Source of the DNA: Bacteroidales bacterium UBA4181
Lineage (GTDB): Bacteria; Bacteroidota; Bacteroidia; Bacteroidales; UBA4181
DNA: 64,000 nt
NCBI GenBank assembly: GCA_002380425.1
Contig: DFUR01000013.1
Coordinates: 554-64,553 of the forward strand
Reading direction: 5' to 3'
Position 1 is the stretch's first letter, and each line of letters begins with the position of its first letter. Shown here in pieces: positions 5,001 to 57,325 of the stretch. Position numbers and translations under genes: made by a program. Below the pieces are notes generated by a model. That model saw only the letters and a list, made by a program, of their open reading frames with translations. It did not search any database and was not told the DNA's origin.

Positions 5001-5638
5001 AAAAAATCTATTTGCTGGGTGTAGGGCGAAATACGCCGGTTTGTATGGATCTTGCAATCAGGTGCGGTTATGAGGTGGCGGGATTGTACCACTACAATGA
5101 TGAAAGAACGGGTGAGTCGGATCACGGGATTCTTATTCTGGGTTCGTTCGCTGATTTGTTTGCAAGGGATTCCCTGCAGGGATTGAATTTCCTGCTGACC
5201 ATGGGGGACAGCCGGATCCGGGTGGAGGTCGCCGATCGATTGCGCAAATTGGGAGCTAATCTGCCTTCTTTGATTCATCCTGCTGCCGTTGTCTCGGGCT
5301 TTGCTACCATAGAGGATGGGGTAACCGTGAATGCATTTTCAAACATTCAGGCTGATGTTTACATAGGCCAGGATAGTTTGATACTATCTGGTGTCAATGT
5401 CTCACACGGTTGTGTTCTTGACAAGGGGTGTTTCATTGCCGGCGGAGCCACTGTGGGTGCCCTCACAAAGGTAGGAGCTTGTGCTTTCATTGGGCAGGGG
5501 GCATTGATTCTTTCTTCCAAAGTTGATTCCATAGGAGAATACGCCGTTATTGGCGCCGGTGCTCTGGTTACAAAGCCTGTTGCACCTCATGATGTGGTTG
5601 CCGGAAGACCAGCCAAAAGCATTAAATCAACCGTATGA
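4997..5638 (+). CDS. Second NeuD/PglD-family acyltransferase (hexapeptide)
   Basis: 'MKKIYLLGVGRNTPVCMDLAIRCGYEVAGLY' plus hexapeptide repeats ('GCFIAGGATVGALTKVGACAFIGQGALI'). ATGA overlap with the upstream gene. Confidence 0.75.
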   Translation: MKKIYLLGVGRNTPVCMDLAIRCGYEVAGLYHYNDERTGESDHGILILGSFADLFARDSLQGLNFLLTMGDSRIRVEVADRLRKLGANLPSLIHPAAVVSGFATIEDGVTVNAFSNIQADVYIGQDSLILSGVNVSHGCVLDKGCFIAGGATVGALTKVGACAFIGQGALILSSKVDSIGEYAVIGAGALVTKPVAPHDVVAGRPAKSIKSTV

Positions 5639-13095: not shown

Positions 13096-14145
13096 ATGAA
13101 GCACGCGCTTATTACCGGGATTACCGGACAGGACGGAGCTTATCTGGCCAAGTATTTGCTAAACAAGGGCTATCGGGTCTTTGGCACGTATCGCCGCTTG
13201 TCCACGCCCAATTTTTGGCGGCTGCAATATCTGGGTATCTTCGATGAGGTGGAGTTGTTCCCCTGTGACTTAATGGATAGTTTCTCCATTATCGAAGCAC
13301 TGCGTCTTTCCCGGCCTGATGAAGTGTACAATCTGGCAGCCCAGAGTTTTGTCGGGGCCTCTTTTGAGCAGGCGATTGCCTCCGGTGAGATCACCGGATT
13401 GGGGGTTGCCCGGCTTTTGGAGGCCATCCGCCTGGTTACCCCCGAGGCTCGATTCTATCAGGCTTCTACCAGTGAGATGTTTGGGGACAACCGCTATGAC
13501 GCCCAGGACGAAAACACCCCGCTGGAGCCCTCCAGCCCCTATGCTGCCGCCAAGTTGTATGCGCACCACATGTTGAAGATATATCGTAAGGGATACGGAC
13601 TGTATGCCTGCAACGGGATTTTGTTCAACCATGAGAGCCCGCTCCGGGGGTTGGAGTTCGTTACCCGGAAAATCACCAACGCGGTTGCCAAAATTAAGCT
13701 CGGACTGGAATCCCATATTGAGCTTGGGAATATTGACGCCCGGCGCGACTGGGGATACGCTCCCGAGTATGTGGAAGCCATGTGGCTGATGTTACAGCAG
13801 GATACTCCGGATGACTATGTGGTGGCCACCAATGAAACCCATTCTGTGCGGGAGTTTCTCCAGGCTGCTTTCTCGTCGGCTGGCCTGAACTGGGAGGATC
13901 ATGTCCGCATCAGCGAGAAGTTTCTCCGGCCGGTGGAAGTGCGATCCTTGCACGGAAATTATGAAAAGAGTGCCCGTGTATTGGGATGGCAGCCAAAGGT
14001 GCTTTTTTCCGATTTGGTGGAATTGATGGTCCGGGAGGATCTGGAGCGGTGGGCTCAGTGGAACCGAGGGGTTCATTTCCCTTGGGATGCCTGGAATTAT
14101 CCCAATGAAAAGAAAATATTGTCCAGAAAAGTGAAGTTTGAATAA
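13096..14145 (+). CDS. gmd: GDP-mannose 4,6-dehydratase
   Basis: 'ALITGITGQDGAYLAKYLLNKGY', 'YAAAKLYAHHM' (YxxxK) and 'GILFNHESPLRG' are hallmark Gmd segments. Confidence 0.85.
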   Translation: MKHALITGITGQDGAYLAKYLLNKGYRVFGTYRRLSTPNFWRLQYLGIFDEVELFPCDLMDSFSIIEALRLSRPDEVYNLAAQSFVGASFEQAIASGEITGLGVARLLEAIRLVTPEARFYQASTSEMFGDNRYDAQDENTPLEPSSPYAAAKLYAHHMLKIYRKGYGLYACNGILFNHESPLRGLEFVTRKITNAVAKIKLGLESHIELGNIDARRDWGYAPEYVEAMWLMLQQDTPDDYVVATNETHSVREFLQAAFSSAGLNWEDHVRISEKFLRPVEVRSLHGNYEKSARVLGWQPKVLFSDLVELMVREDLERWAQWNRGVHFPWDAWNYPNEKKILSRKVKFE

Positions 14146-31115: not shown

Positions 31116-32086
31116 TCGCTTCAATCTCAGTAGTGATTCCTACCTATAACCGAGCCCATACGATAGCCCGTTGTTTGCGGTCTGTGGTGCAGCAAACCCT
31201 GCCTCCCATGGAGGTGATTGTGGTAGATGATTGTTCTTCAGACAACACCGTGTCTATGGTGCAGGGATTGGGGTATCCTTCGGTAAGGGTAGTTGTTCTG
31301 GAGCAGAATTCGGGAGCCCAGGCAGCCCGAAACCGTGGTATCCGAGAAGCCCACGGGGAGTGGATTGCTTTTCAGGACTCTGATGATGAATGGATTAAAA
31401 ATAAGTTGGAAATACAGTACCACTACAATCTGACAAATGGTTTGAATGTGTCATATACCAACGCCTGGATTCACAAAGACCAGTCGAGATGGTTATACGA
31501 TATGCCAGATTATAGCATGGACACTTACAAATGTTTGTTGGCAAAATATGGACCCATGTTCCCGAGTCTGCTGGTTCGCAGGCAATGTTTGGTGGAGATT
31601 GGATTCTTGGATGAATGTGTTCCAAGTTATCAGGAATGGGATACATCAATAAGGTTGGCTCGAAGGAATAATTTTGGTTTTATCAACCAACCTTTGTTTG
31701 TGTACCATCTGCATCAGGGTGAGACCATTTCGAAAGATGTGGCGAGGGAAGCTCTTGGAGTATCTTACATTGCGCAGAAACACAGGGAGGAAATTGTGCG
31801 GGTTGCCGGTGCGGCCGTGTACCGGCGGCATTGTCTGGATATCGCTGAAAGGTTTCGGCGTGCCGGGAATCCTGCCCGGGAACGGGCCTTCCTGAAGGAT
31901 TCTGTGCGTTTTCAAGAGGGCTTTGCTCGTAGATGTGCAGAACGTTTATTATTGCTATATTGTCCCTTGTTCCGGATGTATTTGGAGCAAGGTGAATCTT
32001 TCCCCCGGCTCTGGGCCCGGATGATTGTGAAAACCAAGATGTTCATCGCGCGTATAATTGGAAGATATGAAGACCATAACCCATGA
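31112..32086 (+). CDS. GT2-family glycosyltransferase
   Basis: 'ISVVIPTYNRAHTIARCLRSVVQQTLPPMEVIVVDDCSSDNT' and 'FQDSDDEW'. ATGA overlap upstream. Confidence 0.85.
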   Translation: MIASISVVIPTYNRAHTIARCLRSVVQQTLPPMEVIVVDDCSSDNTVSMVQGLGYPSVRVVVLEQNSGAQAARNRGIREAHGEWIAFQDSDDEWIKNKLEIQYHYNLTNGLNVSYTNAWIHKDQSRWLYDMPDYSMDTYKCLLAKYGPMFPSLLVRRQCLVEIGFLDECVPSYQEWDTSIRLARRNNFGFINQPLFVYHLHQGETISKDVAREALGVSYIAQKHREEIVRVAGAAVYRRHCLDIAERFRRAGNPARERAFLKDSVRFQEGFARRCAERLLLLYCPLFRMYLEQGESFPRLWARMIVKTKMFIARIIGRYEDHNP

Positions 32087-32489
32087 CGGGGCCATCATGG
32101 CCATTGTGATTCCCAGCTCGTACAACAAGCAGGGAATAGAGTTTTTTACCCCGGATGATTTTTCCCAGCAACTGGCTTATATGCATCATCCTAAGGGGAA
32201 ACTAATTCAGCCCCATGTGCACAACCTGATCATGCGTGAGGTGCATTTCACCCAGGAAGTACTGGTTATTCGCAAGGGTAGGGTACGGGTGGATTTCTTT
32301 TCCACTGCTCAGGAGTATTTGGAGAGTTGTGTGCTGGAAACAGGGGACGTGATTTTGCTGGCCTCCGGGGGACACGGCTTTGAAATGCTCGAAGAAACCG
32401 AGATGATTGAAATCAAGCAGGGGCCCTTTGCGGGGGATAAGGACAAAACCCGCTTTGATGCCACCGTTAGCGAACTTAAGATACGATAA
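32067..32489 (+). CDS. Small cupin-fold protein (WbuC-like?)
   Basis: About 140 aa. 'HHPKGKLIQPHVHN' and 'GDVILLASGGHGFEM' look like cupin motifs 1 and 2. The exact family cannot be determined by eye. Confidence 0.5.
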   Translation: MKTITHDGAIMAIVIPSSYNKQGIEFFTPDDFSQQLAYMHHPKGKLIQPHVHNLIMREVHFTQEVLVIRKGRVRVDFFSTAQEYLESCVLETGDVILLASGGHGFEMLEETEMIEIKQGPFAGDKDKTRFDATVSELKIR

Positions 32490-32490
32490 T

Positions 32491-33609
32491 ATGTTTATTC
32501 CTGTCAATGAGCCTTGTCTTGAAGGCAATGAGATAAAGTATCTCACAGAGTGCATTCAAACCGGCTGGATTTCGTCCGAAGGCCCGTATGTGACACAATT
32601 TGAGCAGTTGTTTGCCCAAAGAATGGGGCGGAAATATGGTATAGCAGTTTCCAATGGCTCGGTGGCACTTGATGCAGCAGTGGTTGCTCTGGGTCTCGAA
32701 AAGGGGGATGAAGTAATCATGCCGGCTTTTACGATTATTTCCTGCGCTGCAGCGATTGTCAGGGCCGGGGCTGTGCCTGTGTTGGTGGATTCCGAGCCGG
32801 ACACCTGGAATATGGATGTATCCCAGATAGAAGCAAAAATCACCCCCAGAACCAGGGCCATTATGGTGGTGCATATCTATGGTTTGCCTGTGGATATGGA
32901 CCCGGTGCTGGAACTGGCGCACAAGTACGGGCTGAAGGTGATTGAAGATGCAGCAGAGATGCACGGACAAACCTATAAAGGCCGACCGTGCGGTAGTCTG
33001 GGAGATATCAGCACTTTTAGTTTTTACCCCAACAAGCACATCACTACAGGTGAGGGGGGGATGATTCTTACCGATGACGAGCAACTTGCTGAGCGGTGCC
33101 GTTCCCTGCGCAATCTGTGCTTTCAGCCCGGCCGAAGGTTTGTGCATGAGGAGCTGGGCTGGAATTTCCGGCTCACCAACCTGCAGGCGGCAATGGGTGT
33201 AGCTCAGTTGGAGCGTCTGGATGAGTTTGTGGCGCGTAAAAGGGAGATAGGTTCCCGATACACCGCGCTACTCTCGGGCCAGAAGAGCCTGCAGATTCCG
33301 ATGGAAAGCACTCCGTATTCCAGGAATATTTACTGGGTGTTTGGTCTGGTTCTGGGCCCTGAGGTTCCGTTTGATGCCATGGAAGCCATGAAGCGTTTGG
33401 GCGAAGCTGGCGTTGGAACCCGTCCATTCTTCTGGTGCATGCACGAACAACCGGTCTTTCAAAAGATGGGCCTGTTTGTTGGAGAACATTACCCGGTTGC
33501 TGAGAATATGGCCCGCAGAGGGTTTTATGTGCCCAGCGGACTGGGTCTGAATCTGGACCTGATTCCCGAAATCTGCAGTAAAGTCAAGCTAATTCTGTCT
33601 CAATCCTGA
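32491..33609 (+). CDS. DegT-family aminotransferase, GDP-perosamine synthase-like
   Basis: 'MFIPVNEPCLEGNEIKYLTECIQTGWISSEG', 'FSFYPNKHITTGEGGMILTDD' (PLP Lys) and 'NFRLTNLQAAMGVAQLERL' match the pattern of Per/RfbE-type enzymes. ATG at 32491. Confidence 0.75.
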   Translation: MFIPVNEPCLEGNEIKYLTECIQTGWISSEGPYVTQFEQLFAQRMGRKYGIAVSNGSVALDAAVVALGLEKGDEVIMPAFTIISCAAAIVRAGAVPVLVDSEPDTWNMDVSQIEAKITPRTRAIMVVHIYGLPVDMDPVLELAHKYGLKVIEDAAEMHGQTYKGRPCGSLGDISTFSFYPNKHITTGEGGMILTDDEQLAERCRSLRNLCFQPGRRFVHEELGWNFRLTNLQAAMGVAQLERLDEFVARKREIGSRYTALLSGQKSLQIPMESTPYSRNIYWVFGLVLGPEVPFDAMEAMKRLGEAGVGTRPFFWCMHEQPVFQKMGLFVGEHYPVAENMARRGFYVPSGLGLNLDLIPEICSKVKLILSQS

Positions 33610-33613
33610 GCCG

Positions 33614-34861
33614 ATGCCCAAGCGGATTGCCGTTTTTCAGTACGACTGGCCCCTTCAGAGCTATACTCGTGATTTGCTGGTAAAGCTCAGGGAGGAAGGC
33701 CACGAGGTTACTTTTTTTGCCTATCAGGTGTTTGAAGTACAACTGGTGGATGTGTCTCCCTTGAGCGACCTGGGCATTGAGGAACTCTATTTTCAGGACA
33801 CCGGAACGAGGATTCAGCATGTGGAAGACCGGCTTGGAAGCATTTGGGGACGGGCATTCCGGCATATATTCTGGAGATTTCTGGTGGGCACACTCAAATG
33901 GCTCTGGAAGTTGCCTGTTCATCTTATTGACAAACTGGTGCTCTTTCAGTCCCTGTTGTCGGTTAGGAAACGTGCTCCCTTTGACTATTATATCGGGATG
34001 GAGAAGGAAGGCCTGATATGGGCTTCGCTCCTGGCACGAAAGACCAGAGTTCCGGTGATATATTACAGTCTGGAACTCTATCTGGAGGATCTTCTGCACC
34101 TTCCTGAATATGCAAAATATGCCTCATTGAGAAAAGCGGAGTTGAAATGTCACCAGCGGGCCGTGGCCACCATTGTGCAGGACCGGTTCAGGGCGGAGGC
34201 CTTGTTCCGGGCCAACAACACCCGGAATCTGTGGATTCCCCTGCCTGTTTCGGTAAGGGGGCTTCCGGTTTATAGAAAATCGGGATACCTGTGCCGAAAG
34301 TTCGGGATCCCCGCGGATAAAACCATCCTGTTGTATTTTGGTTTGTTTCTGCAGGTGCGTTTCTGTGAGGAAATCATCGAGGCTGTCAATGACATGGATG
34401 GGTCGTGTGTTGCTGTCTTTCACGGATACGGAGACCCGGAGTATGTGGCCCTGTTACAGTCCAAAGCCAAACCAGGCAGGGTGTATTTCAGTCTGGACCT
34501 GGTGGAGGAGTCAGAACTTTCCGAGATCCTCTCCTCGGCTCATATTGGATTTGCTCTGTATGAAAACCGCTATCTCAACGACAGGTTCACAGCCTTGTCC
34601 TCTCAGAAGATTGCCCTCTTTGCACGGCACGGACTGCCCTTTGTGGCCATGAAGAATGAAAGCTATGAGGACTTAGAGCGACAGGTGCCCTGTTGTGCCC
34701 TTGTGGATGATGTATCGTCCTTGCCTCAGGCACTTTCCCTTGTAGTGAGTCATTACCAGCAATACCGCGCGGCTTCTTTTGAGGCCTACCGGAGATTCTA
34801 CCATTTCGATCAGGCGTTCGCTCCCCTTGGAACATTCCTGAAATCAGGTTCTATTCAATAA
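33614..34861 (+). CDS. GT-B fold glycosyltransferase-like protein
   Basis: 'KRIAVFQYDWPLQSYTRDLLVKLREEGHEVTFF' is a GT-B N-domain start. The C-domain contains 'ILLYFGLF...VAVFHGYGDPEYV' and 'SQKIALFARHGLPFVA'. Confidence 0.55.
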   Translation: MPKRIAVFQYDWPLQSYTRDLLVKLREEGHEVTFFAYQVFEVQLVDVSPLSDLGIEELYFQDTGTRIQHVEDRLGSIWGRAFRHIFWRFLVGTLKWLWKLPVHLIDKLVLFQSLLSVRKRAPFDYYIGMEKEGLIWASLLARKTRVPVIYYSLELYLEDLLHLPEYAKYASLRKAELKCHQRAVATIVQDRFRAEALFRANNTRNLWIPLPVSVRGLPVYRKSGYLCRKFGIPADKTILLYFGLFLQVRFCEEIIEAVNDMDGSCVAVFHGYGDPEYVALLQSKAKPGRVYFSLDLVEESELSEILSSAHIGFALYENRYLNDRFTALSSQKIALFARHGLPFVAMKNESYEDLERQVPCCALVDDVSSLPQALSLVVSHYQQYRAASFEAYRRFYHFDQAFAPLGTFLKSGSIQ

Positions 34862-36803: not shown

Positions 36804-37959
36804 TCCTGCTCTGGTTGTTCCTGCTTTCAATCGTCCGGCCAGCCTGTCGCGGCTCCTTGATGCTCTTGCCAAGGCACATTATGATGTCCCGCCTGTTCTG
36901 ATTATCAGCATTGATTATTCTGTGGACTACACTTCGGTGTTGCAAACTCTGGCGCAGAGCTTTCTCTGGCACGGGGAGAAGAAAGTGGTAGTTCATCAGC
37001 AAAACATGGGGCTTAAGAACCATATTTTGTGGTGTGCCTCACTTTCTGAGCAATATGGAGCTGTGATTGTTCTGGAGGATGACCTCATGGTTTCTCCCTG
37101 GTTCTACCACTATGCATTAAGTGCTCTTGAGGATACTGATGGCTCTGAAGACGTTGCGGGGATATCCCTGTATGCCCCTTCGTTCAACGAATCAGCTTTT
37201 TTGCCATTCCATCCTCTGATGACAGGTTCCGGGTACTACCTCATGCAGTTGCCTTGTTCCTGGGGGCAGATATGGACGAGGGAACAATACCGGGGTTTTG
37301 CTCAGTGGTACCAAACCGATTTTCGAGAGTCTGATATGGACTTTCTTCCCGATGGAATCAGGGAATGGTCCGCGCAGTCCTGGAAGAAAATCTTTATTTT
37401 GTATCTGCAACAAACCCGTCGTTTCTTCGCCTATCCATATACGTCTTTTTCACAGAATATGAACGAACCGGGCACCCATGTTCGCTCGTGTGACAAGACA
37501 TTCCACAACACATTATCTCTGGGTTTTCGTCCTTTGGGCCCATTTCTGCCCGAACAGGCACCCAGATACGATGCATCGGGAAACCTGCTTCCTGATTATT
37601 TGCTCGCCCACTGTCCTGCATTGAACGATTTTCGGTTCGAGGTAGATTTGTATGGAAAGAAGTTGCACAATTATGATGAAGATCAGTGGGTGCTGACCTG
37701 TTTGCCCTGTGAGTCCTATGTCTGGTCATTTGCTCTGGACCTGTTTCCCCCGGAAGTGAACCTCATGATGGGACAGGAGGGAATCGGTTTATTTCTGACA
37801 CGCAAACGGCACATACGTTCGAACTCATATCCCCGGGAGTTGATTCGCTACTTCTATCCCGTTCCTGGGTGGTACGGTGCTTATTTTGCCCCCCCCATCA
37901 GGGAGATGCTGAAATCCTTCTTTCCCAGGTTGTTGCATAAGCTCTTTTGTCGTCGGTGA
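36793..37959 (+). CDS. GT-A glycosyltransferase with an EDD motif, GnT-I (GT13)-like
   Basis: 'ALVVPAFNRPASLSRLLDAL...VLIISIDY' and 'AVIVLEDDLMVSPWFYHY' resemble the GnT-I 'VVVEDDLEVAPDFF' region. It contains a C8 tract at 37889..37896. Confidence 0.5.
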   Translation: MANNPALVVPAFNRPASLSRLLDALAKAHYDVPPVLIISIDYSVDYTSVLQTLAQSFLWHGEKKVVVHQQNMGLKNHILWCASLSEQYGAVIVLEDDLMVSPWFYHYALSALEDTDGSEDVAGISLYAPSFNESAFLPFHPLMTGSGYYLMQLPCSWGQIWTREQYRGFAQWYQTDFRESDMDFLPDGIREWSAQSWKKIFILYLQQTRRFFAYPYTSFSQNMNEPGTHVRSCDKTFHNTLSLGFRPLGPFLPEQAPRYDASGNLLPDYLLAHCPALNDFRFEVDLYGKKLHNYDEDQWVLTCLPCESYVWSFALDLFPPEVNLMMGQEGIGLFLTRKRHIRSNSYPRELIRYFYPVPGWYGAYFAPPIREMLKSFFPRLLHKLFCRR

Positions 37960-38747
37960 TGACCACCCTCTATACCACCTTTTACGATGAGCAAAACCCG
38001 GTGCGGAAAGCCGAGTTGCTTCGGGCTGTGGAGTTAAACCTGAAGTGTTCGGCTATTGACCGGATTGTGGTGCTTAACGAAAGCAACCATCACTGGAGCG
38101 ATGGCCATTTGGAAAGTATCGCAGTCAGTAGGCGACCCAGTTATGAGGACTATTTCCGCATCATCAATGAACGGAGCGGACCGGACGATATCCACATCAT
38201 TGCCAATACCGATATCTTCTTTGATGAGCGCATTGGGGTGCTGCACCATCTGAACTGGGCCGATACCTGTCTGGCCCTGACCCGATGGAATGTCCGGGAG
38301 GATGCTTCTGTGGCTTTGTTCGAACGGAACGACAGTCAGGATGTATGGGTTTTCAAGGGCCCGGTGAAACCGGTAACAGGGGATTTTCCCATTGGGGTGC
38401 CCTTTTGTGACAACCGTATTCTGTATGAATTGCTCCGGGCAGGATACAGGGTGCTCAATCCGGCCTTCAGTATTCGGTGTTATCACTTACATGCAGGGGT
38501 GCGGCAGGAATATGACAAGGCAACGCTCCAGGTCTATGTGGAAGAACCTTACCGCTACTTGTTTCCCCACAATCTGTTCAGTCTGTTTGGAACGTTGTGG
38601 TTCAATTTGCGCCATCGTCCCGGAGTGCTGTCCTATCGTTATGACCTGAAAAAAGCCAATCGCTGGTGGGCCGTGAGGCTGTTGCGTTTTGCTTACACCC
38701 GGCTGACCGGAAACGCCTTTCCCCTCCTGGGATATCCGCCTCGCTGA
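37959..38747 (+). CDS. Uncharacterised protein (possible GT-A-like transferase)
   Basis: 262 aa. The only cue is a DxD-like 'IIANTDIFFDE' following a beta-alpha-like N-terminus. TGATG overlap with the upstream gene. Confidence 0.3.
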   Translation: MTTLYTTFYDEQNPVRKAELLRAVELNLKCSAIDRIVVLNESNHHWSDGHLESIAVSRRPSYEDYFRIINERSGPDDIHIIANTDIFFDERIGVLHHLNWADTCLALTRWNVREDASVALFERNDSQDVWVFKGPVKPVTGDFPIGVPFCDNRILYELLRAGYRVLNPAFSIRCYHLHAGVRQEYDKATLQVYVEEPYRYLFPHNLFSLFGTLWFNLRHRPGVLSYRYDLKKANRWWAVRLLRFAYTRLTGNAFPLLGYPPR

Positions 38748-38748
38748 T

Positions 38749-39756
38749 ATGAAGCACTTGTTGAAAAAATCACTGTCCGCAACCCTGCCACATCTGCCCG
38801 TTTCGTGGCTGATCAGGATGGCTCCCGGCCCCTTGTTCCCCTATTATCATCTGGTGTCCGATGTTCCTCCCGTGTACATGCAGGGCTCGTATCCGGTGGC
38901 TTCGGTGCAGGTGTTCGAACGTAACCTGGACTTTTTGTTGCGGCATTGGAAACCGGTTTCTCTGGAAGATATCCTGGGATGGGTGCGGGAAGGAGCTCCA
39001 GTTCCTCAGGGTGTGTTTCATCTAACCTTCGATGACGGTTTCCGGGAGGTCTATGATGTGGTGTTCCCAGTGCTGAAGCGAAAGGGGATTCCTGCCACGA
39101 CCTTTGTTTGCAGTGACTTACTTGAACCAGGGATTTGGATGTGGGAACATGAACGTGCCTTGGTAGTCAGAGCCGCAAAAGAGGCTGACAAACAGATACT
39201 CCAATCGCTTTCAGTTGCATTAAATTGCATTTCCGGTTATGAGTTGCAGACGCTGAGCGCGGTGGATTATGAGCACCGGGGGGCGTTGTCGCGTGCGGCG
39301 GATTGTTTGCATCTGGATTTATCCACTCTGGCCCGGGAGCATTCCCCGTACCTTGCTGAAGGCCACATCCGGGAGATGATTGCCTCTGGATTTACCTTCG
39401 GGTCTCACGCTCTGGACCACCCTTTGTTTCAGAACCTCACTCTGGAACATCAATTGGCGCAGATATCTCAGAGCGTTCGGGCAATATGCGAACGGTTTGG
39501 CCTGCCCTATAAAGTTTTTGCCTTCCCCTATGGAGAATCGGGGTTGTCTCCGGAGTTATTCTCCCGTATCTTTGGGGAGGGTCTGGTGGACATCTGCTGG
39601 GGTACCCGGGGGATGTTGCCCGATGAATATCCAGGGGTGATTCAGCGTCTTTGGATGGAGGTTCCGGGAGGGGCTGTCTCTTGCGCGATCCGGCAGGAGC
39701 TGACCCGTAAAGTGATTCGTAAGCTGGTCCATAATGATAAGGTTACACGAAAATAA
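38749..39756 (+). CDS. Polysaccharide deacetylase (CE4 / NodB homology domain)
   Basis: 'FHLTFDDGFREVYDVVFPVLKRKGIPATTFV' (TFDDG motif 1) and 'FGSHALDHP' (His motif). Confidence 0.8.
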   Translation: MKHLLKKSLSATLPHLPVSWLIRMAPGPLFPYYHLVSDVPPVYMQGSYPVASVQVFERNLDFLLRHWKPVSLEDILGWVREGAPVPQGVFHLTFDDGFREVYDVVFPVLKRKGIPATTFVCSDLLEPGIWMWEHERALVVRAAKEADKQILQSLSVALNCISGYELQTLSAVDYEHRGALSRAADCLHLDLSTLAREHSPYLAEGHIREMIASGFTFGSHALDHPLFQNLTLEHQLAQISQSVRAICERFGLPYKVFAFPYGESGLSPELFSRIFGEGLVDICWGTRGMLPDEYPGVIQRLWMEVPGGAVSCAIRQELTRKVIRKLVHNDKVTRK

Positions 39757-39757
39757 G

Positions 39758-41773
39758 ATGCCCCTGATTTCCATCATTATTCCTCATTACAACCGTTCCG
39801 GCCTGATTGGTGCCACCCTGCAGTCGGTTTACAACCAAACCATGAGCGATTGGGAGGTGATTATTGTGGATGACGGTTCCACTCCTGAGGAATATTCCTT
39901 GTTGCAGTCTCATGCTGACGAGCGGGTGCGGATTCTGCAGCGGGAGGATGCTCCAAAGGGGCCCTCCCGGTGCCGCAATATTGGGCTGAGCCTTGCCAAA
40001 GGGAAGTATGCGCTGTTCCTGGATTCCGATGACTTGCTGGAATCCACTTCCCTTGTCGGCCGTTACAGCCGGGCGCAGCAATACCCTTCGCTGGATATGT
40101 GGGTGTTTCATTACGCCAATTTTCGGGAGGTTCCCGGGGATGTGAATGAGCCTTGGCGAAGGCTTGACCCTACCATCAATCATTTGGAACACTTTCTCAC
40201 CCTGGATGCACCCTGGTGTGTCACCTCCTGTTTGTGGAACACCGAGCGGTTGCGCGCTTTGGGTGGGTTTAACGAACGGATATGGTACGGGGATGATGCG
40301 GAGTTGCACATCCACGCTCTTTTGGAAGGATACCGCTTTAAGGAGTTTCCCGAGGTTACGGCAGATTGTTTTGTGCGGCGCAGCGAGATACCGAGAACCA
40401 CCAATGAATTGTCTGAGGGAATGATTCATTCCCGCCTGCTCTATCTGGATGAAGTATGGTCTTTGATGGAGAAGTATCCCAATGTTGAAAGGAACCGCAG
40501 ATGGTGGGAAACCGCCTATTTTGCCGAGGCTGAGTTCTTGATTTTCAAACGTCAGTACCGGAGTCTTGTGGCGGTTTGGTTGCACATGCTGGAACGTTTT
40601 TCCTGGTGGAAAGCCTCGGCCATCTGCTGGTACACCGGGGTGGGGGCAGGGCTGCATGCGTGTAGCCCGCTGGCGTACAGATTGTGGCGGAAACTACACA
40701 TCATTCTTTCCTCCGAGCGGTTCTTTATGTGGACGCAGCGACGCAGCGCCGAGCATACCAACTTGCAGTGGGCTGCCATGCAGGACAGCCTGAATCTGCT
40801 CCGGCAAAGGGCCTCGGAGTCGTCATCAGATTATCTGCTGGGTGTTTTGCCTTCACGGCCCAAGATTAAATTGTGGTTCACAGATTTCTGGGGCGGGTTT
40901 GACCCCCGGTGCAACTGGTTTCTCACATTTTTGGCTCCGCATTTCGACATTGAGCTTTCAGAGCATCCGGATTTTTTGATTTATTCCTGCTACGGAACGA
41001 ATTTTCTGCGTTATTCCTGTGTCCGTATCTACTTTACCGCTGAGAATATCCGCCCCGATTACCGGTTTTGTGATTATTCTTTTTCCTTCGATTTCTCCAA
41101 GGACCCCCGCAACTATCGTCTTCCTCTTTATCGCCTGTATTTTACCGAGCAACAATTGCTTGCCCCAAGGATGGCAGAGCCGTCCCTGTTCAGCGGGCGG
41201 AAATTCTGCAATATGGTGGTGAGCAACGCCCATGCACGCGAACGGCTAGATTTTTTTCGGTTGCTGAATGCCCGTTCAAAAGTGGACTCAGGGGGCAGAA
41301 CGCTGAACAACATCGGGGGAGCCGTGGAGAACAAAAGGACTTTTGTGCATCAGTACCGTTTTACCATTGCCTTTGAAAACAGTTCGCACCCCGGTTATCT
41401 TACCGAGAAACTCTTTGAGCCCTGGGTGGAACACAGTGTTCCCATTTATTGGGGCGACCCCAGAGTAGAGGATGAGATCAACCCGGAATGTTTCATCAAT
41501 GTGATGAATTATTCTTCATTTGAGGAGGCTGTGGAGGATATCATGAGAATCAATCAGTCTCCCAGGCTCTATTTAAACTATCTCCAGGCTCCCTTGTTTC
41601 GGAACAATGTTATGCCCGATTACCTGACGGACGAACAAATTCTGAGGCGTTTTGCCGAGATCTTTGGCATCGGGACCCGGATTGTCAGGGCTGCGGCATG
41701 GTGGCATCCCCTGTATTATTATGTCCGCAAACTCAAAGGGGGTTCCCGGCTTATCAAGATGGATTTACGCTGA
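39758..41773 (+). CDS. Two-domain glycosyltransferase: N-terminal GT2 fused to a C-terminal GT10 (alpha-1,3/4-fucosyltransferase-like) domain
   Basis: The GT2 domain has 'ISIIIPHYNRSGLIGATLQSVYNQTMSDWEVIIVDDGSTPEE' and 'FLDSDDLL'. The GT10 domain has 'KLWFTDFWGGFD', 'IYFTAENIRPD' and 'YRFTIAFENSSHPGYLTEKLFE', which is the FxxxFENSxxxxYxTEK motif. Confidence 0.8.
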   Translation: MPLISIIIPHYNRSGLIGATLQSVYNQTMSDWEVIIVDDGSTPEEYSLLQSHADERVRILQREDAPKGPSRCRNIGLSLAKGKYALFLDSDDLLESTSLVGRYSRAQQYPSLDMWVFHYANFREVPGDVNEPWRRLDPTINHLEHFLTLDAPWCVTSCLWNTERLRALGGFNERIWYGDDAELHIHALLEGYRFKEFPEVTADCFVRRSEIPRTTNELSEGMIHSRLLYLDEVWSLMEKYPNVERNRRWWETAYFAEAEFLIFKRQYRSLVAVWLHMLERFSWWKASAICWYTGVGAGLHACSPLAYRLWRKLHIILSSERFFMWTQRRSAEHTNLQWAAMQDSLNLLRQRASESSSDYLLGVLPSRPKIKLWFTDFWGGFDPRCNWFLTFLAPHFDIELSEHPDFLIYSCYGTNFLRYSCVRIYFTAENIRPDYRFCDYSFSFDFSKDPRNYRLPLYRLYFTEQQLLAPRMAEPSLFSGRKFCNMVVSNAHARERLDFFRLLNARSKVDSGGRTLNNIGGAVENKRTFVHQYRFTIAFENSSHPGYLTEKLFEPWVEHSVPIYWGDPRVEDEINPECFINVMNYSSFEEAVEDIMRINQSPRLYLNYLQAPLFRNNVMPDYLTDEQILRRFAEIFGIGTRIVRAAAWWHPLYYYVRKLKGGSRLIKMDLR

Positions 41774-41778
41774 AAAAC

Positions 41779-42693
41779 ATGCTCGCGCTCACAGATTATT
41801 GCCGCTACAACGAATCTCTCAAGCCATCTCTGGTGTTTCGCCTCGGTGCGGATGCTGGTTTCTTTTCGGAGATCAACAATATGCTTCTGGCCCAGTTGTA
41901 CTGTCTGGACCAGGGGATCAGGTTCCGTTTGTATGCTCGGGGAGCACAGTTTTCACCGGAGGGTTGGACCGGATTTTTCGAGCCATTTTGTACTGAGAGT
42001 AGCTGCACATTTCACCGTCACTACAATGTCAGGGATATTGGCCGTTCCAGAGTTTGGGCTCTGTACAGCAGAATCCGGCCACTCTTGGGCTGGCCCCTGC
42101 TAACCCAGGATGTGTGGATACAACTCCGGGAACCGGAGCGCTTGCGGTACAGTCTGCCTTTCCCCGGTTGGGAGGACATTTCCCTCAGGGATGCTCTGCG
42201 GGAGTTGTTCCGGATGATATGGCGTTACAATACAGCTACATCCGAAGCTGTTCATGCCCTGATACAGTCGTTGTCCATGCCGGAACACTATCTGGGTATG
42301 CACATCCGGGCGGGCGATAAAAACACTGAGCATCCCCTTATGGAGGCCTCTGTGTATATCGAGAAAGCTGAGAAGGTGTCTTCGTTGCGTCATGCTTTTG
42401 TCCTTACCGATGATTATGATGTGTTTTCGCACCTGAGTCAGCATTACCCGGACTGGACCTTTTACACCCTTTGCCAGCCATCAGAAAAGGGATATTTTCA
42501 TCGTTCTCTGGGCGCACAGGGGGCCGAAAAAGTCCGGGACAGCCACCTTCGCTTGCTGGCTTCCTCGGATATCCTGGAGCGTAGTGAACATTTTATAGGT
42601 ACCTTTAGCTCCAATCCGGGCATGAATATGGGCATCCGAATGCAACCCGGGCAGTGTCACGGCGTGGATTTTGAAAACTGGCGAATATGGTGA
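41779..42693 (+). CDS. Fucosyltransferase-superfamily-like protein (GT11/GT23/GT65-type HxRxGD motif)
   Basis: 'LGADAGFFSEINNMLLAQLYC', 'LGMHIRAGDK' and 'DILERSEHFIGTFSSNPGMNMG' resemble FUT8/NodZ/FutC motifs I-III. ATG at 41779. Confidence 0.5.
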   Translation: MLALTDYCRYNESLKPSLVFRLGADAGFFSEINNMLLAQLYCLDQGIRFRLYARGAQFSPEGWTGFFEPFCTESSCTFHRHYNVRDIGRSRVWALYSRIRPLLGWPLLTQDVWIQLREPERLRYSLPFPGWEDISLRDALRELFRMIWRYNTATSEAVHALIQSLSMPEHYLGMHIRAGDKNTEHPLMEASVYIEKAEKVSSLRHAFVLTDDYDVFSHLSQHYPDWTFYTLCQPSEKGYFHRSLGAQGAEKVRDSHLRLLASSDILERSEHFIGTFSSNPGMNMGIRMQPGQCHGVDFENWRIW

Positions 42694-43565
42694 TGGATTC
42701 AACCCCGGTAGTTTCGGTTCTGGTTACGGTGTACAACCGTGCACGGTATTTGGAAGCATGTCTGGAAAGCATTCGTGAATCAACATACCCTCATTGGGAG
42801 GCCGTGGTTGTGGATGATGGCTCCTCTGACGAGTCTCTGATGATTGCCCGGCAGTTTGCTGCAGTGGACCCTCGCTTCAGAGTGTTCTGCAACGAAGCAA
42901 ACCTGGGAGATTATCCCAACCGAAACCGGGCGGCTTCCCTGGCTCTGGGAAAGTATCTTAAGTACCTTGATGCAGACGACATGCTCTATCCCCATGCCCT
43001 GGGGATATTCGTGGAGGAAATGGAACGATTTCCTCAGGCGGCCCTGGGTATTTCCCAGCAAGTGGTTGAAGATGTGCTTCCCTATCCGTTCCTGATGACT
43101 CCACATGAAACCTACCGACGCGAGTTCCTGTGCCGCGGGGTGCTGGGCGTAGGACCGACCGGGACCATCATCCGGCGGGATTGTTTTGAAGCCCTCGGTG
43201 GCTTTAGCATCCAGCGACACATCGGAGACACAGATATGTGGCTGAGGCTTTCGGCACAATATCCGGTACTGAAACTCAATGCCTGTCTCACCTTTTGGCG
43301 CCGGCACGAGGGCCAGGAGATTGTGGCAGAGGACAGGAATCTTTCGGTTCGGCGGGTGCGATATGACCATTTGTTGCAGATGCTTCGGTCGGAGCACTGC
43401 CCCCTGAATGAAAGCGAAAGGACAGAAGCCATGAGAAGGGTACATCGCAGATATGCCCGTTTTCTGGTCCGTCTGGCATTGAAAAATGGCCCTTTGGGAG
43501 AGACCTCCCGTCTGAGTAAGGGAATGGGGGGTTGGATGAAAATTTTGCGTTATGCCTGGACATAA
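42687..43565 (+). CDS. GT2-family glycosyltransferase
   Basis: 'VSVLVTVYNRARYLEACLESIRESTYPHWEAVVVDDGSSDES' and 'YLDADDML'. Confidence 0.85.
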   Translation: MVMDSTPVVSVLVTVYNRARYLEACLESIRESTYPHWEAVVVDDGSSDESLMIARQFAAVDPRFRVFCNEANLGDYPNRNRAASLALGKYLKYLDADDMLYPHALGIFVEEMERFPQAALGISQQVVEDVLPYPFLMTPHETYRREFLCRGVLGVGPTGTIIRRDCFEALGGFSIQRHIGDTDMWLRLSAQYPVLKLNACLTFWRRHEGQEIVAEDRNLSVRRVRYDHLLQMLRSEHCPLNESERTEAMRRVHRRYARFLVRLALKNGPLGETSRLSKGMGGWMKILRYAWT

Positions 43566-51820: not shown

Positions 51821-52587
51821 AAATCTCAGTGATTACAGCCTGTTATAACAGTCAGGCATATCTGGCTTCGGCGATAGAATCCGTGCTCAAGCAATCCTAC
51901 GACAATATTGAGTATATCCTGGTGGACGGGGCCTCGGAAGATGCCACACTGGAAATTGTGCGTCGTTACACCCCTGCTTTTGGGAATCGGATGGTGCTGA
52001 TCAGTGAGCAGGACCAGGGTATTTATGATGCCATCAACAAAGGAATTGCCCGGGCTACCGGGGATGTGGTAGGGGTGTTGCACTCCGATGATTTGTATGC
52101 TTCTCCGGATGTGTTGCAGCATGTGGCTGAGGCGTTTAATCATTCCCTCGCCGATGTGGTCTATGGGGATCTGTGTTATGTGGATCCGAAGAACCTGAAA
52201 AGGGTGAAGCGACACTGGAAAAGTATGCCCTTTCGCCCGGGAATGCTGCATCGGGGATGGATGCCGGCGCATCCTTCGGTGTTTGTCCGTAAGTCCGTGT
52301 ATGAGCGGTTGGGGCCCTATGATGAGAAACTAACCATCTCCGGGGATTATGATTATATGCTGCGCTTGTTTTCTGCACCCATATCCTCAAGTTATGTTGG
52401 AGAGGTATTCACCCTGATGCGTAGCGGAGGTACCAGCAACCGGAACCTGAAAAATCTGTGGAAGAAATCCCGGCAGGACATCGTTGCCCTGAAGAAGAAC
52501 GGCCTTCCCCGTCCTGTATCGACTGTACTGTTGAAGAATATTCGGAAATTGCCCCAGGTGATTCCCGGGAGTAGCCTATTTCTGTAA
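51817..52587 (+). CDS. GT2-family glycosyltransferase
   Basis: 'MKISVITACYNSQAYLASAIESVLKQSYDNIEYILVDGASEDAT' and 'LHSDDLY'. ATGA overlap start at 51817. Confidence 0.85.
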   Translation: MKISVITACYNSQAYLASAIESVLKQSYDNIEYILVDGASEDATLEIVRRYTPAFGNRMVLISEQDQGIYDAINKGIARATGDVVGVLHSDDLYASPDVLQHVAEAFNHSLADVVYGDLCYVDPKNLKRVKRHWKSMPFRPGMLHRGWMPAHPSVFVRKSVYERLGPYDEKLTISGDYDYMLRLFSAPISSSYVGEVFTLMRSGGTSNRNLKNLWKKSRQDIVALKKNGLPRPVSTVLLKNIRKLPQVIPGSSLFL

Positions 52588-53616
52588 GGCGCAGTCCGCA
52601 GGTGCTGCTCCAGGCCTTCCGGGGGACAACACAGGTTCAGTTGCAGCTTCCTGTTTCCCGGTTGCGGGAGACATCAGCCAGAACTTGAGGCAGTACAACA
52701 TGGCAAGTGGTGTGACCGTGATAAACCCGACGGCCCACCAGGGGAAAATAGTCCATAACGAAAGGGCTGCCATGGACACTCCCAACTGAAGCCCGGCATA
52801 CAGCAGGGACACCCAAAGGTGAGACCATTGCTGTTCATTGGTGAGGACCTGAAAAAAGTGCAGCCGGTGGGCCTTGAAGATATTCTGCCTCAGATACAAC
52901 CTGTGAAGGATGGTGGCGATGGTGTCCACACCGTACACTGCCAGCAATGCCAGCCAGACCGGGCTCCCGGTTTGCATCATCAATTTAAGAACAAGAAAGA
53001 TAATCCAGAAAGCGATGGACATGCTGCCCACGTCGCCAGCGAAGCATTTGGCCCGGGTACGGAAGTTGAAGGTCAGGAACACCACGCAAGCGATCATGGC
53101 ATACCAAATAAAATCAGGATGGACTACGAAGGCAACATGCCGGAGGTTGATCCATTGAAGAACGGCAAGAACAACCAGACTGTACAGGCCGGTCATACCG
53201 TTGATTCCGTCCATAAAGTTGAAGGCATTGGCCACCCCACCCAGAATAAGATAGGCCAGAATAACCATCCAGAGAGGAGCCACTTCAAAAAGTCCAACAC
53301 CGTAGAAGGCAAAGGATACGGCGATAAAATGCACCAATAAGCGCCAGAGTGTGGGTACGCCCCGGGTGTCGTCAATAAAACTTACTGCTGCAATGATGAA
53401 CAACCCCGTCAGAAAGGCAATTTTTCCATGGATCTCCAGATGTTCCAGGCTGTGGACCAGACCTGCTACAAAAAAGAGGATGCCTCCGCCCCTGATGGCC
53501 AGATAATGATGCGAACTGCGGTCGTTGGGGCAATCGAAAATGCGAAGCCTTCGGGCAACCTGCATATAGGCGATTATGGTAGCGTAAAGAAGTGCCGTAA
53601 CGAGGATGTAACTCAT
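52576..53616 (-). CDS. wecA: Polyprenyl-phosphate HexNAc-1-phosphate transferase (MraY/WecA family)
   Basis: 'RIFDCPNDRSSHHYLAIRGGGILFF', 'NAFNFMDGINGMTG' and multiple TM helices. It converges on the last plus-strand GT2 and overlaps it by 12 nt. Confidence 0.85.
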   Translation of the reverse strand: MSYILVTALLYATIIAYMQVARRLRIFDCPNDRSSHHYLAIRGGGILFFVAGLVHSLEHLEIHGKIAFLTGLFIIAAVSFIDDTRGVPTLWRLLVHFIAVSFAFYGVGLFEVAPLWMVILAYLILGGVANAFNFMDGINGMTGLYSLVVLAVLQWINLRHVAFVVHPDFIWYAMIACVVFLTFNFRTRAKCFAGDVGSMSIAFWIIFLVLKLMMQTGSPVWLALLAVYGVDTIATILHRLYLRQNIFKAHRLHFFQVLTNEQQWSHLWVSLLYAGLQLGVSMAALSLWTIFPWWAVGFITVTPLAMLYCLKFWLMSPATGKQEAATEPVLSPGRPGAAPADCALQK

Positions 53617-56278: not shown

Positions 56279-56329
56279 ACAAGCATGGGTAAAAGAATCA
56301 GTATTGGCTAATAGCGTTACGCATTCAAA

Positions 56330-57211: not shown

Positions 57212-57325
57212 GGGAAATGATGATTCAAGTTTATGCATAACAAAGGTAGAAAATCTTTTGTGGATGTGGCACAAAATCTCAGAATGGTTACCTTTGAAGC
57301 AACAGTAATTGTATTTTCTTAGATT

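What the first reader, a model, noticed from the sequence alone, without database searches (positions are those of the whole stretch)
39758..42693. GT2-GT10 fusion followed by a second fucosyltransferase-like gene, with gmd present but no fcl in the window
**Seen in sequence.** One 671-aa ORF joins a canonical GT2 head to a C-terminal domain. That domain carries the alpha-1,3/4-fucosyltransferase motif 'FTIAFENSSHPGYLTEKLFE'. The next ORF has 'LGMHIRAGDK' and 'FIGTFSSNPG', which resemble the HxRxGD and C-terminal motifs of the GT11/GT23/GT65 fucosyltransferase superfamily. gmd is at 13096..14145, but I recognised no GDP-fucose synthase (fcl). The SDR at 25754 does not look like Fcl.

**Inference.** Two readings are possible. 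GDP-L-fucose may be completed by an unlinked fcl. Alternatively, these 'FucT-like' domains may use another GDP-6-deoxyhexose made here, such as GDP-perosamine or its N-acyl form, or GDP-D-rhamnose. The GT2-GT10 fusion would add two consecutive residues from a single polypeptide.
Basis: partly seen in the sequence, partly recalled or inferred. Interest (0 to 1): 0.6.

Follow-up and report, generated by a model that had tools for sequence, protein, structure and literature searches.

The report
Fucosyltransferase-type gene pair without a fucose supply
Two neighbouring sugar-adding genes in a large cell-surface sugar-coat gene cluster of a Bacteroidota bacterium look like intact fucose-adding enzymes, one of them a very rare two-enzyme fusion, yet the 97%-complete genome has no gene for the last step of making activated fucose, so what they transfer is an open question that can be tested.

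Summary

- **Fusion.** ORF 39758..41773 (671 aa) is a real GT2–GT10 fusion. All Pfam domains pass their thresholds and all H. pylori FucT catalytic residues are kept. The same ORF is called in at least 8 independent metagenome assemblies.
- **Second gene.** The next gene (true start 41779, 304 aa) just misses the FUT8 Pfam threshold. Its confident model matches only GDP-fucose enzymes in the PDB (FUT8, NodZ, POFUT2, AtFUT1, POFUT1).
- **Missing fcl.** fcl is absent from the whole assembly (97.4% complete), not only from the window. fkp and GDP-mannose 3,5-epimerase are absent too. This is unusual. 92 of 100 other GT10-bearing genomes have fcl. All 24 relatives with gmd also have fcl, mostly adjacent to it.
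- **Likely use of gmd.** The window's gmd is a divergent type. It probably feeds a perosamine-synthase-like aminotransferase at 32491..33609, which is paired with a WbuC-like cupin.
- **Donor pocket.** The GT10 domain shows no remodelling of its conserved positions, and its nearest genome-resolved relative (L016) lies in a genome that has fcl.

My best reading (about 0.45) is that these are true L-fucose-type transferases whose donor supply is unidentified. Use of another GDP-sugar (about 0.25) or an unsupplied module (about 0.15) is not excluded.

The fusion order is very rare: one other protein among 1.84 billion representatives. Permuted fusions and adjacent unfused gene pairs also exist.

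The parts
39758..41773 (+). GT2-GT10 fusion glycosyltransferase (671 aa; alternative start 39734 gives 679 aa)
   Evidence: The same ORF is called in 8 independent metagenome contigs. Only P0002 matches it end to end among 1.84 billion representatives.
39758..40822 (+). GT2 (GT-A) head, residues 1-355, with a 'DSDD' DXD motif. It is homologous to stand-alone GT2 proteins of 370-400 aa.
   Evidence: Pfam PF00535 covers residues 5-112, E 4e-24. Stand-alone homologues are 37-47% identical. The best solved GT2 relative is chondroitin synthase 2z87, E 2e-22.
40874..41587 (+). GT10 module: FucT_N (residues 373-461) plus the Glyco_transf_10 catalytic domain (residues 483-610)
   Evidence: In the alignment to H. 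pylori FucT, E95, R195, N240, Y246, E249 and K250 are all conserved, as E429, R496, N541, Y547, E550 and K551.
41779..42693 (+). GT23-like (FUT8/NodZ-fold) glycosyltransferase, 304 aa ('ORF2')
   Evidence: PF19745 scores 26.6 bits, below the gathering cut-off. The model has pLDDT 93.1. Foldseek matches FUT8 at 2.7e-12 and NodZ at 2.7e-8. H175, R177, G179, D180 and K181 are invariant in 41 family members.
13096..14145 (+). GDP-mannose 4,6-dehydratase of a divergent type, with no fcl beside it
32067..32489 (+). WbuC-like cupin (140 aa) directly upstream of the aminotransferase; function unknown
   Evidence: TIGR04366 scores 32 bits, below the 42-bit cut-off. The cupin+aminotransferase pair recurs in 3 of 3 sampled genomes.
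32491..33609 (+). Perosamine-synthase-like aminotransferase acting on a GDP-4-keto-6-deoxyhexose. The open frame runs from a TTG at 32407.
   Evidence: The best PDB match is Caulobacter perosamine synthetase 3bn1, E 3.8e-91. The best NCBIfam match is the LegC family, 331 bits.
33614..34861 (+). GT4-like glycosyltransferase directly behind the per-like gene; the conventional candidate perosaminyltransferase
   Evidence: weak GT4 matches only.
37947..38747 (+). Conserved 266-aa protein with no family match; part of the conserved module
   Evidence: No Pfam or NCBIfam hit. It is 57% identical to a gene in L005 and 42% to one in L016.
38749..39756 (+). CE4 polysaccharide deacetylase directly upstream of the fusion
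   Evidence: PF01522, E 6e-20. It is syntenic in L005 at 44% identity. The same Pfam family sits next to the permuted fusions in L002 and L003.
42687..43565 (+). GT2 glycosyltransferase following ORF2; syntenic in L005
14138..16255 (+). Wzm permease and Wzt ATPase of an O-antigen-type ABC exporter
52576..53616 (-). WecA/MraY-family (PF00953) initiating phosphoglycosyl transferase at the end of the locus
   Evidence: Gene calls on identical contigs.

Best explanation
**What it is.** The two genes are a working, conserved glycan-building module inside a roughly 45-kb Wzm/Wzt (ABC-transporter-type) surface-polysaccharide locus.

**How it probably works.**
- The fusion protein carries two inverting transferases on one chain.
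- The GT2 head adds a beta-linked sugar from an alpha-linked nucleotide sugar.
- The GT10 tail adds an alpha-L-fucose-type residue from a GDP-beta-L-6-deoxyhexose.
- Together they would lay down two successive residues. They may do this repeatedly, in the way the multi-domain polymerases of ABC-dependent O-antigen pathways work.
- The GT23-like enzyme next door adds a second fucose-type residue, as a branch or a cap.

**The donor.** It is most likely GDP-L-fucose or a sugar of nearly identical shape. Its source is not accounted for. Either fcl lies in the roughly 3% of the genome that was not assembled, or the 3,5-epimerisation and 4-reduction after Gmd are done by enzymes unrelated to Fcl.

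**Shown:** domain identities, intact catalytic residues, fold, synteny, rarity of the fusion, and absence of fcl, fkp and GME from the assembly.

**Inferred:** the donor, the linkages, the order of additions and any polymerase behaviour.
For: **Domains and catalytic residues.** The GT10 domains pass Pfam thresholds, and every H. pylori FucT catalytic or GDP-fucose-binding residue is kept. Of 61 columns conserved in 78 other GT10 domains, the window and its closest homologue differ at only five (Y506, K534, T548, F574, D599). None of these is catalytic, and H. pylori FucT itself has V at the T548 position.

**Nearest relatives.** The closest genome-resolved GT10 domain, L016 (48% identical), lies in a genome with fcl (G041). 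L002 carries a permuted fusion (49% identical) with gmd+fcl upstream in the same locus.

**Co-occurrence with fcl.**
- 73 of 80 GT10-bearing genomes across phyla have fcl.
- 19 of 20 high-quality genomes of the same phylum that carry GT10 have fcl.
- All 5 other genomes with an ORF2-family gene have fcl.

**ORF2.** Its model matches only GDP-fucose enzymes, and the H-x-R-x-G-D-K motif is invariant in the family.

**Functional coupling of GT2 and GT10.**
- A same-order fusion exists in P0002 (51% identical).
- Permuted GT10-GT2 fusions exist in P0003-P0007.
- Adjacent unfused GT2|GT10 genes exist in L016, L023, L044 and L048.

**Pathway context.** Wzm/Wzt and a WecA-type initiator flank the locus.
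Against: - No fcl is found in a 97.4%-complete assembly, although E. coli Fcl finds fcl in 26 of the 40 other relatives searched, in all but one at E of 1e-58 or lower.
- No Fkp is found, and no GME.
- All 24 relatives with gmd also have fcl. It lies on the same contig in 21 of them and is directly adjacent in 12 of 13 loci inspected. The window's gmd stands alone beside wzm.
- The window's Gmd is only 44-49% identical to those canonical Gmds.
- The nearest genera mostly lack the gmd-fcl pair (1 of 5 genomes), so true absence of fcl is quite likely.
- No candidate for an Fcl-independent epimerase/reductase pair has been demonstrated.
- Polymerase behaviour is conjecture.
Confidence: 0.45

Rival explanations
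1. **Donor switch.** fcl is truly absent. The GT10 domain, the GT23-like enzyme or both use a different GDP-sugar made in the locus from the Gmd product. Candidates are GDP-perosamine or its N-acyl form, GDP-D-rhamnose, or GDP-mannose itself.
For: - gmd without fcl is unique to this genome among the 25 gmd-bearing genomes of the relatives set.
- A perosamine-synthase-like aminotransferase lies in the locus.
- An N-acetyltransferase of the NeuD/PglB/VioB family is at 4997..5638.
- Donors other than fucose probably do occur in GT10. In three fcl-less genomes a GDP-mannose 3,5-epimerase gene sits directly beside the GT10 gene.
- In a Chloroflexia MAG without fcl, a per-like gene overlaps the start of a GT10 gene.
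- Per-like genes occur in 3 of 6 fcl-less GT10 genomes against 2 of 44 with fcl. Fisher p = 0.009, from small numbers and MAGs of unknown completeness.
Against: - GDP-alpha-D-perosamine differs from GDP-beta-L-fucose in ring conformation and in the geometry of the anomeric bond (established stereochemistry). Yet the GT10 domain shows no remodelling of conserved positions.
- Two unrelated fucosyltransferase families would both have had to switch donor.
- A GT4 gene lies next to the per-like gene here, and another does in L019. These are the usual kind of perosaminyltransferase.
- The window's GT10 does not group with the per-adjacent L019 in the tree.
- From my own knowledge, I know of no characterised GT10 or GT23 enzyme that uses a D-configured GDP-sugar. 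The literature searches found none.
Confidence: 0.25
2. **Unsupplied module.** The U266-deacetylase-fusion-ORF2-GT2 block was acquired from a fucose-making donor. It currently has no donor sugar in this host, so these two enzymes are idle while the rest of the locus builds the glycan.
For: - The block is syntenic with a 51-59% identical block on another organism's contig, L005.
- It is not found in the 40 relatives searched.
- fcl is absent from the assembly.
Against: - The genes are intact, tightly packed in one long co-directional array, and identical at protein level in at least 8 metagenome assemblies.
- All catalytic residues are kept.
- No frameshift or stop is present.
- G+C matches the surroundings.
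Confidence: 0.15
3. **Assembly or gene-calling artefact.** The fusion is two separate genes wrongly joined.
For: None found.
Against: - The same uninterrupted 671/679-aa ORF is present in 8 independent assemblies from JGI, ENA and Logan.
- A 663-aa protein that is 51% identical aligns over residues 1-668 in one stretch.
Confidence: 0.01

Closest known systems
Helicobacter pylori alpha1,3/4-fucosyltransferase FucT/FutA (GT10; PDB 2nzw, 5zoi)
   Same: Both have the FucT_N plus GT10 catalytic domains. E95, R195, N240, Y246, E249 and K250 are all conserved, including the 'FEN...GY.TEK' motif.
   Different: Here the GT10 module is the C-terminal half of a fusion with a GT2 domain. It lacks the heptad-repeat tail, sits in an ABC-transporter polysaccharide locus, and the genome shows no GDP-fucose synthase.
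FUT8 / NodZ alpha1,6-fucosyltransferases (GT23)
   Same: ORF2 shares their fold (Foldseek E 2.7e-12 and 2.7e-8; TM 0.55-0.65) and the H-x-R-x-G-D-K GDP-binding motif.
   Different: Sequence identity is only 11-17%, and the Pfam score is just below the family cut-off. ORF2 is much shorter than FUT8 (304 aa, no SH3 or coiled-coil domain). It belongs to an uncharacterised, mainly Bacteroidota family.
Multi-domain glycosyltransferase polymerases of ABC-transporter-dependent O-antigen pathways (E. coli O9a WbdA, Raoultella/Klebsiella WbbB) and two-domain synthases such as chondroitin synthase KfoC
   Same: Two glycosyltransferase modules sit on one polypeptide in a locus with Wzm/Wzt and a WecA-type initiator. 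The GT2 head's best solved GT2 relative is chondroitin synthase.
   Different: The domain pair is different (GT2 + GT10). No polymerase activity, chain terminator or product is known here. The resemblance to WbdA and WbbB is from my own knowledge and was not tested.
Permuted GT10-GT2 fusions (P0003-P0007; loci L002-L004) and unfused GT2|GT10 neighbours (L016, L023, L044, L048)
   Same: The same two domain families are involved, 47-49% identical in GT10. They are also in Wzm/Wzt loci with a CE4 deacetylase nearby.
   Different: The domain order is opposite, or the genes are separate. L002 carries gmd+fcl in the same locus; the window does not.

Membership tests
GT10 (Pfam PF00852 + PF18025) | Scores above the curated Pfam thresholds for both GT10 domains | tested here: met
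   PF18025 scores 97.9 bits (cut-off 27.2). PF00852 scores 74.4 bits (cut-off 23.9).
GT10 (Pfam PF00852 + PF18025) | Catalytic base and GDP-fucose-binding residues of H. pylori FucT (E95, R195, N240, Y246, E249, K250) | tested here: met
   All are aligned and identical. They are also conserved in the 84-sequence alignment.
GT10 (Pfam PF00852 + PF18025) | Uses GDP-beta-L-fucose as donor | not testable with these tools
   The genomic proxy fails: no fcl, fkp or GME in the assembly. Elsewhere 92 of 100 GT10-bearing genomes have fcl.
GT23-like fucosyltransferase superfamily (FUT8/NodZ) | Passes the Pfam FUT8_N_cat (PF19745) gathering threshold | tested here: not met
   26.6 bits against a 27.6 cut-off, E 3e-6. 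There is no PDB hit by sequence.
GT23-like fucosyltransferase superfamily (FUT8/NodZ) | GT-B-variant fold of FUT8/NodZ | tested here: met
   Model pLDDT 93.1. All 50 matches listed by Foldseek are fucosyltransferases, with FUT8 at E 2.7e-12.
GT23-like fucosyltransferase superfamily (FUT8/NodZ) | Conserved Arg-containing motif (HxRxGDK) that binds the GDP phosphate | tested here: met
   H175, R177, G179, D180 and K181 are invariant in 41 family members. The role of the Arg is taken from knowledge of FUT8 and NodZ.
GT2 | Pfam PF00535 above threshold, with a DXD motif | tested here: met
   85.7 bits against a 23.3 cut-off. 'FLDSDD' is visible in the translation.
De novo GDP-L-fucose pathway (Gmd + Fcl) | GDP-mannose 4,6-dehydratase present | tested here: met
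   TIGR01472 is the best hit at 389 bits, slightly under its 415 cut-off. Identity to E. coli Gmd is 44%.
De novo GDP-L-fucose pathway (Gmd + Fcl) | GDP-L-fucose synthase (Fcl) present | tested here: not met
   There is no hit better than 24% identity in the 97.4%-complete assembly. The same query finds fcl in 26 of the 40 other relatives searched.
GDP-perosamine pathway (Gmd + Per, optionally PerB) | Perosamine synthase | tested here: inconclusive
   The best solved relative is Caulobacter Per, E 3.8e-91, well ahead of the next (7.8e-72). No curated family passes its cut-off. A conserved cupin partner leaves the exact product open.
ABC-transporter-dependent polysaccharide assembly with a multi-domain glycosyltransferase | Wzm/Wzt exporter, a WecA-type initiator and a polypeptide with two or more GT modules in one locus | tested here: met
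   Polymerase activity itself cannot be tested with these tools.

The most novel reading that the evidence does not exclude
The genome makes a look-alike of fucose without Fcl.

1. Gmd forms GDP-4-keto-6-deoxymannose.
2. The conserved WbuC-like cupin acts as a 3,5-epimerase.
3. The per-like aminotransferase then gives a GDP-4-amino-4,6-dideoxy-L-hexose, which may be N-acylated afterwards.
4. The unremodelled GT10 and GT23-like enzymes accept this sugar in place of GDP-L-fucose.

This would explain three things together: two intact fucosyltransferase-type genes, gmd without fcl, and the very widespread, uncharacterised cupin+aminotransferase cassette.
Probability: 0.08. Interest if true: 0.8.

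Novelty: new variant of a known kind. Interest (0 to 1): 0.45.

Why it matters
- **A rare enzyme combination.** A single polypeptide that joins a GT2 and a GT10 module in this order has only one other representative in 1.84 billion protein clusters. Together with the permuted and unfused versions, it points to a recurrent two-enzyme unit for building fucose-containing bacterial polysaccharides. Such enzymes are useful for glycan synthesis.
- **A clean test case for function prediction.** Two fucosyltransferase-type genes sit in a nearly complete genome that has gmd but no fcl. This tests whether family membership predicts the donor sugar.
- **A hint that GT10 donors vary.** GT10 genes sit beside GDP-mannose 3,5-epimerase genes in other fcl-less genomes. 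This suggests that GT10 donor range in bacteria is wider than the annotation 'fucosyltransferase' implies.

Tried and rejected
**Searches in this genome that found nothing**
- The whole genome was searched for fcl, fkp and GME. None was found.
- All 16 Epimerase-family matches in the genome were listed and the unknown ones read. They are gmd, rmlB, rmlD, GalE-like, UDP-GlcA-epimerase-like, UXS-like, the SDR at 25754 and several unrelated SDRs. One lies on a 3.4-kb contig with a TPP enzyme and an ATP-grasp enzyme. None is Fcl-like.
- The plasmid collection gave no match.
- A PDB sequence search with ORF2 and with the cupin gave nothing useful.

**Ideas tested and dropped**
- The aminotransferase at 16237 as Per: rejected. 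Its best relative is DesI (2po3), so it belongs to the dTDP branch.
- The 322-aa gene after the permuted fusion in L002 as an ORF2 homologue: rejected, no similarity.
- A 'non-fucose clade' of GT10 uniting the window with the per-adjacent L019 or the GME-adjacent loci: not found in the tree.
- A donor-pocket signature in the window's GT10: not found.
- P0362 as a second same-order GT2-GT10 fusion: rejected. It is a tandem GT10-GT10 protein.

**Uninformative results**
- Contexts of the fcl-less loci L041 and L049 are housekeeping genes.
- The literature on WbuC gives no function.

Reads could not be used to look for an unassembled fcl.
Full report
**1. Observation**

The window is bases 554-64553 of an 84-kb contig. 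The contig belongs to a 2.66-Mb, 107-contig assembly rated 97.4% complete and 0.04% contaminated.

ORF 39758..41773 (671 aa) contains the quoted GT10 motif. Its Pfam hits are a GT2 domain (residues 5-112, E 4e-24), FucT_N (373-461, 97.9 bits) and the GT10 catalytic domain (483-610, 74.4 bits). All are well above their curated cut-offs. By sequence, the best solved relative is H. pylori alpha1,3-fucosyltransferase (2nzw, E 9e-32). The printed alignment shows E95, R195, N240, Y246, E249 and K250 of that enzyme all conserved.

The fusion is not an assembly artefact.
- The same 671/679-aa gene is called on 8 contigs shown from independent JGI, ENA and Logan assemblies, the longest 359 kb.
- A 663-aa protein that is 51% identical aligns with it end to end.

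The second ORF carries the two quoted motifs. Its only Pfam hit is FUT8_N_cat, one bit below the cut-off, and it has no PDB hit by sequence. I aligned 40 homologues and predicted the structure (pLDDT 93.1, pTM 0.91). All 50 matches listed by Foldseek against the PDB are GDP-fucose-dependent enzymes:
- FUT8, E 2.7e-12
- NodZ, E 2.7e-8
- POFUT2, Arabidopsis FUT1 and POFUT1

H175, R177, G179, D180 and K181 are invariant in the family. The gene starts at the ATG at 41779, 6 nt after the fusion's stop, not at 41698. That start is used in all independent gene calls.

**2. The locus**

One co-directional array runs from about 7 kb to 52.6 kb. Its genes are:
- rmlA and rmlB
- wza and wzc
- gmd (13096)
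- wzm and wzt
- a DesI-like aminotransferase
- several GT2 genes
- an NDP-hexose 2,3-dehydratase, a Gfo/Idh/MocA oxidoreductase and the SDR at 25754
- a cupin plus a per-like aminotransferase (32067..33609)
- a GT4-like gene
- an AsnB-type amidotransferase
- an atypical GT-A gene
- an unassigned 266-aa gene
- a CE4 deacetylase
- the fusion, then ORF2
- two GT2 genes and four GT4-type genes
- a Wzy-like gene
- a WcaF-type acetyltransferase
- a final GT2 gene

A WecA-family initiator lies convergent at the end of the array. rmlC and rmlD lie beyond it on the minus strand.

**3. Fate of the Gmd product**

No GDP-fucose route is found.
- E. coli Fcl finds nothing better than a GalE-like gene at 24% identity in the whole assembly.
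- The same query finds fcl in 26 of the 40 other relatives, in all but one at E of 1e-58 or lower.
- Fkp is absent.
- No GDP-mannose 3,5-epimerase is present.

The aminotransferase at 32491..33609 has Caulobacter perosamine synthetase as its clearly best solved relative (E 3.8e-91; the next is 7.8e-72). Its best NCBIfam hit is LegC, another GDP-sugar aminotransferase. The simplest use of Gmd here is therefore a GDP-4-amino-4,6-dideoxyhexose, probably perosamine.

This aminotransferase is preceded by a 140-aa WbuC-like cupin at a 1-nt spacing. The cupin+aminotransferase pair is a widespread cassette. More than 8000 proteins match the cupin, the top hits at 60-72% identity, and the pair recurs in 3 of 3 sampled genomes. 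No GT10 gene lies nearby in those three, and the cupin's function is unknown.

**4. How unusual gmd without fcl is**

- Among the 40 relatives, 24 have gmd and all 24 also have fcl. The two genes are on the same contig in 21 of them.
- In 12 of 13 inspected loci fcl is directly adjacent to gmd.
- Those Gmd proteins are 57-65% identical to E. coli Gmd. The window's is 44% identical to E. coli Gmd and 44-49% to theirs.
- The nearest genera mostly lack the gmd-fcl pair: 1 of 4 genomes in one genus and 0 of 1 in the other.

The window's gmd is therefore not the family's gmd-fcl gene. True absence of fcl is a serious possibility and not just a gap in the assembly.

**5. Do these transferase families normally go with fcl?**

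- I collected 80 species genomes whose GT10 domain is 37-48% identical to the window's. Of these, 73 have fcl.
- In 400 genomes of the same phylum that are at least 90% complete, 20 have GT10 and 19 of those have fcl.
- ORF2-family genes occur in 5 other genomes searched, and all 5 have fcl.

The exceptions are informative.
- In three of the seven fcl-less genomes (L043, L045, L060), a gene 100 bits and more above any other family sits directly beside the GT10 gene. Its best solved relative is Arabidopsis GDP-mannose 3,5-epimerase (E 2e-101). This suggests GDP-L-galactose as the donor there.
- In a fourth (L019, a Chloroflexia MAG), a per-like aminotransferase overlaps the GT10 start. A GNAT gene and a GT4 gene lie upstream and two GT2 genes downstream.

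**6. Does the window's GT10 look re-tooled?**

It does not.
- In a maximum-likelihood tree, the window groups with L005 (support 100/94) and then with L016, a Saccharicrinis MAG that has fcl. It does not group with L019 or with the GME-adjacent genes.
- Of 61 columns conserved in 78 other sequences, the window and L005 differ at only five, none of them catalytic. At one of these (T548L), H. pylori FucT itself has valine.
- By contrast, the GME-adjacent pair L043/L045 changes three conserved positions in the VDSGG-x-x-NN-x-G loop.

**7. The fusion architecture**

- Among 5.8 billion clustered proteins and 1.84 billion representatives, only P0002 shares the GT2-then-GT10 order. P0362 turned out to be a GT10-GT10 tandem.
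- P0002's contig (L005) has the same gene order as the window: 266-aa gene (57% identical), deacetylase (44%), fusion (51%), ORF2 (57%), GT2.
- P0003-P0007 carry the opposite order, GT10 then GT2. They sit in Wzm/Wzt loci with a CE4 deacetylase, and one of them has gmd+fcl upstream.
- Unfused GT2 genes sit directly upstream of GT10 in L016, L023, L044 and L048.

Independent fusions in both orders, together with conserved adjacency, argue that the two activities work on successive steps.

**8. Weighing the explanations**

Enzyme identity is well supported. The donor is not.

Evidence pointing to L-fucose or a very similar L-sugar:
- the unremodelled pocket
- the fcl-positive nearest genome-resolved relative (L016) and the gmd+fcl locus of a permuted fusion (L002)
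- the strong family-level co-occurrence with fcl

Evidence pointing to real absence of GDP-fucose:
- the completeness of the assembly
- the lone, divergent gmd
- the presence of a per-like branch

GDP-alpha-D-perosamine differs from GDP-beta-L-fucose in ring conformation and in the geometry of the anomeric bond (established stereochemistry). A direct switch by two unrelated families without visible changes therefore seems less likely than an unidentified supply of a fucose-shaped donor.

My estimates are:
- 0.45 for fucose-type transfer with an unidentified supply (a missed fcl or a non-orthologous route)
- 0.25 for a different GDP-sugar donor
- 0.15 for an unsupplied module
- the remainder for something else

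**9. Limits**

- Most comparison genomes are MAGs of unknown completeness.
- Related genomes are not independent observations.
- The per/fcl association (Fisher p = 0.009) rests on 5 genomes.

Noticed in passing
L043:9015-9998, L045:7219-8190, L060:13056-14063: In three GT10-bearing genomes without fcl, a GDP-mannose 3,5-epimerase gene lies directly beside the GT10 gene. Its best solved relative is Arabidopsis GME 2c59, E 2e-101. These GT10 enzymes may therefore be L-galactosyltransferases. L043 and L045 also change three otherwise conserved GT10 positions (G512A, N517R, G520A/S in window numbering).
   Followed up: partly
L019:6890-12932: A Chloroflexia MAG without fcl has this gene order: GNAT, GT4, per-like aminotransferase (46% identical to the window's), GT10, GT2, GT2. 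The aminotransferase overlaps the GT10 start. Its gmd (57% identical to the window's) is split over two frames on another contig.
   Followed up: partly
window 32067-33609; L107, L108, L109 at about 8001-9558: A 140-146-aa cupin with no Pfam family sits directly upstream of a 371-373-aa DegT-type aminotransferase. This is a widespread two-gene cassette: more than 8000 cupin homologues, the top hits at 60-72% identity. Its sugar product is unknown.
   Followed up: partly
proteins P0003-P0009, P0026, P0362: Bacterial GT10 domains are fused to many partners: GT2 in the opposite order, a second GT10, GT47, GT4 and TPR repeats.
   Followed up: partly
window 37947-38747: A 266-aa protein with no family match is conserved next to GT10 genes in two other organisms (57% identical in L005, 42% in L016). 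It may be an uncharacterised partner enzyme.
   Followed up: no
window 13096-14145: The only Gmd of the genome scores below the TIGR01472 cut-off. It is only 44-49% identical to the canonical Gmd of relatives, all of which pair with fcl.
   Followed up: yes
window 55730-57418 (minus strand): rmlC and rmlD lie about 47 kb from rmlA and rmlB (6991-9078). They are on the opposite strand and beyond the end of the glycan array.
   Followed up: no
L096-L103: The locus recurs in at least 8 metagenome assemblies, including a stirred-tank reactor sample. ORF2's protein sequence is identical in all of them, and contigs reach 359 kb. Better assemblies of this organism therefore exist.
   Followed up: no
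L016:5520-10924: In the nearest genome-resolved relative of the GT10 domain (Saccharicrinis MAG), GT10 sits behind a GT2 gene and between two sulfotransferase genes. A 295-aa GDP_Man_Dehyd-type SDR lies upstream. This hints at a sulfated fucose-type polymer.
   Followed up: no
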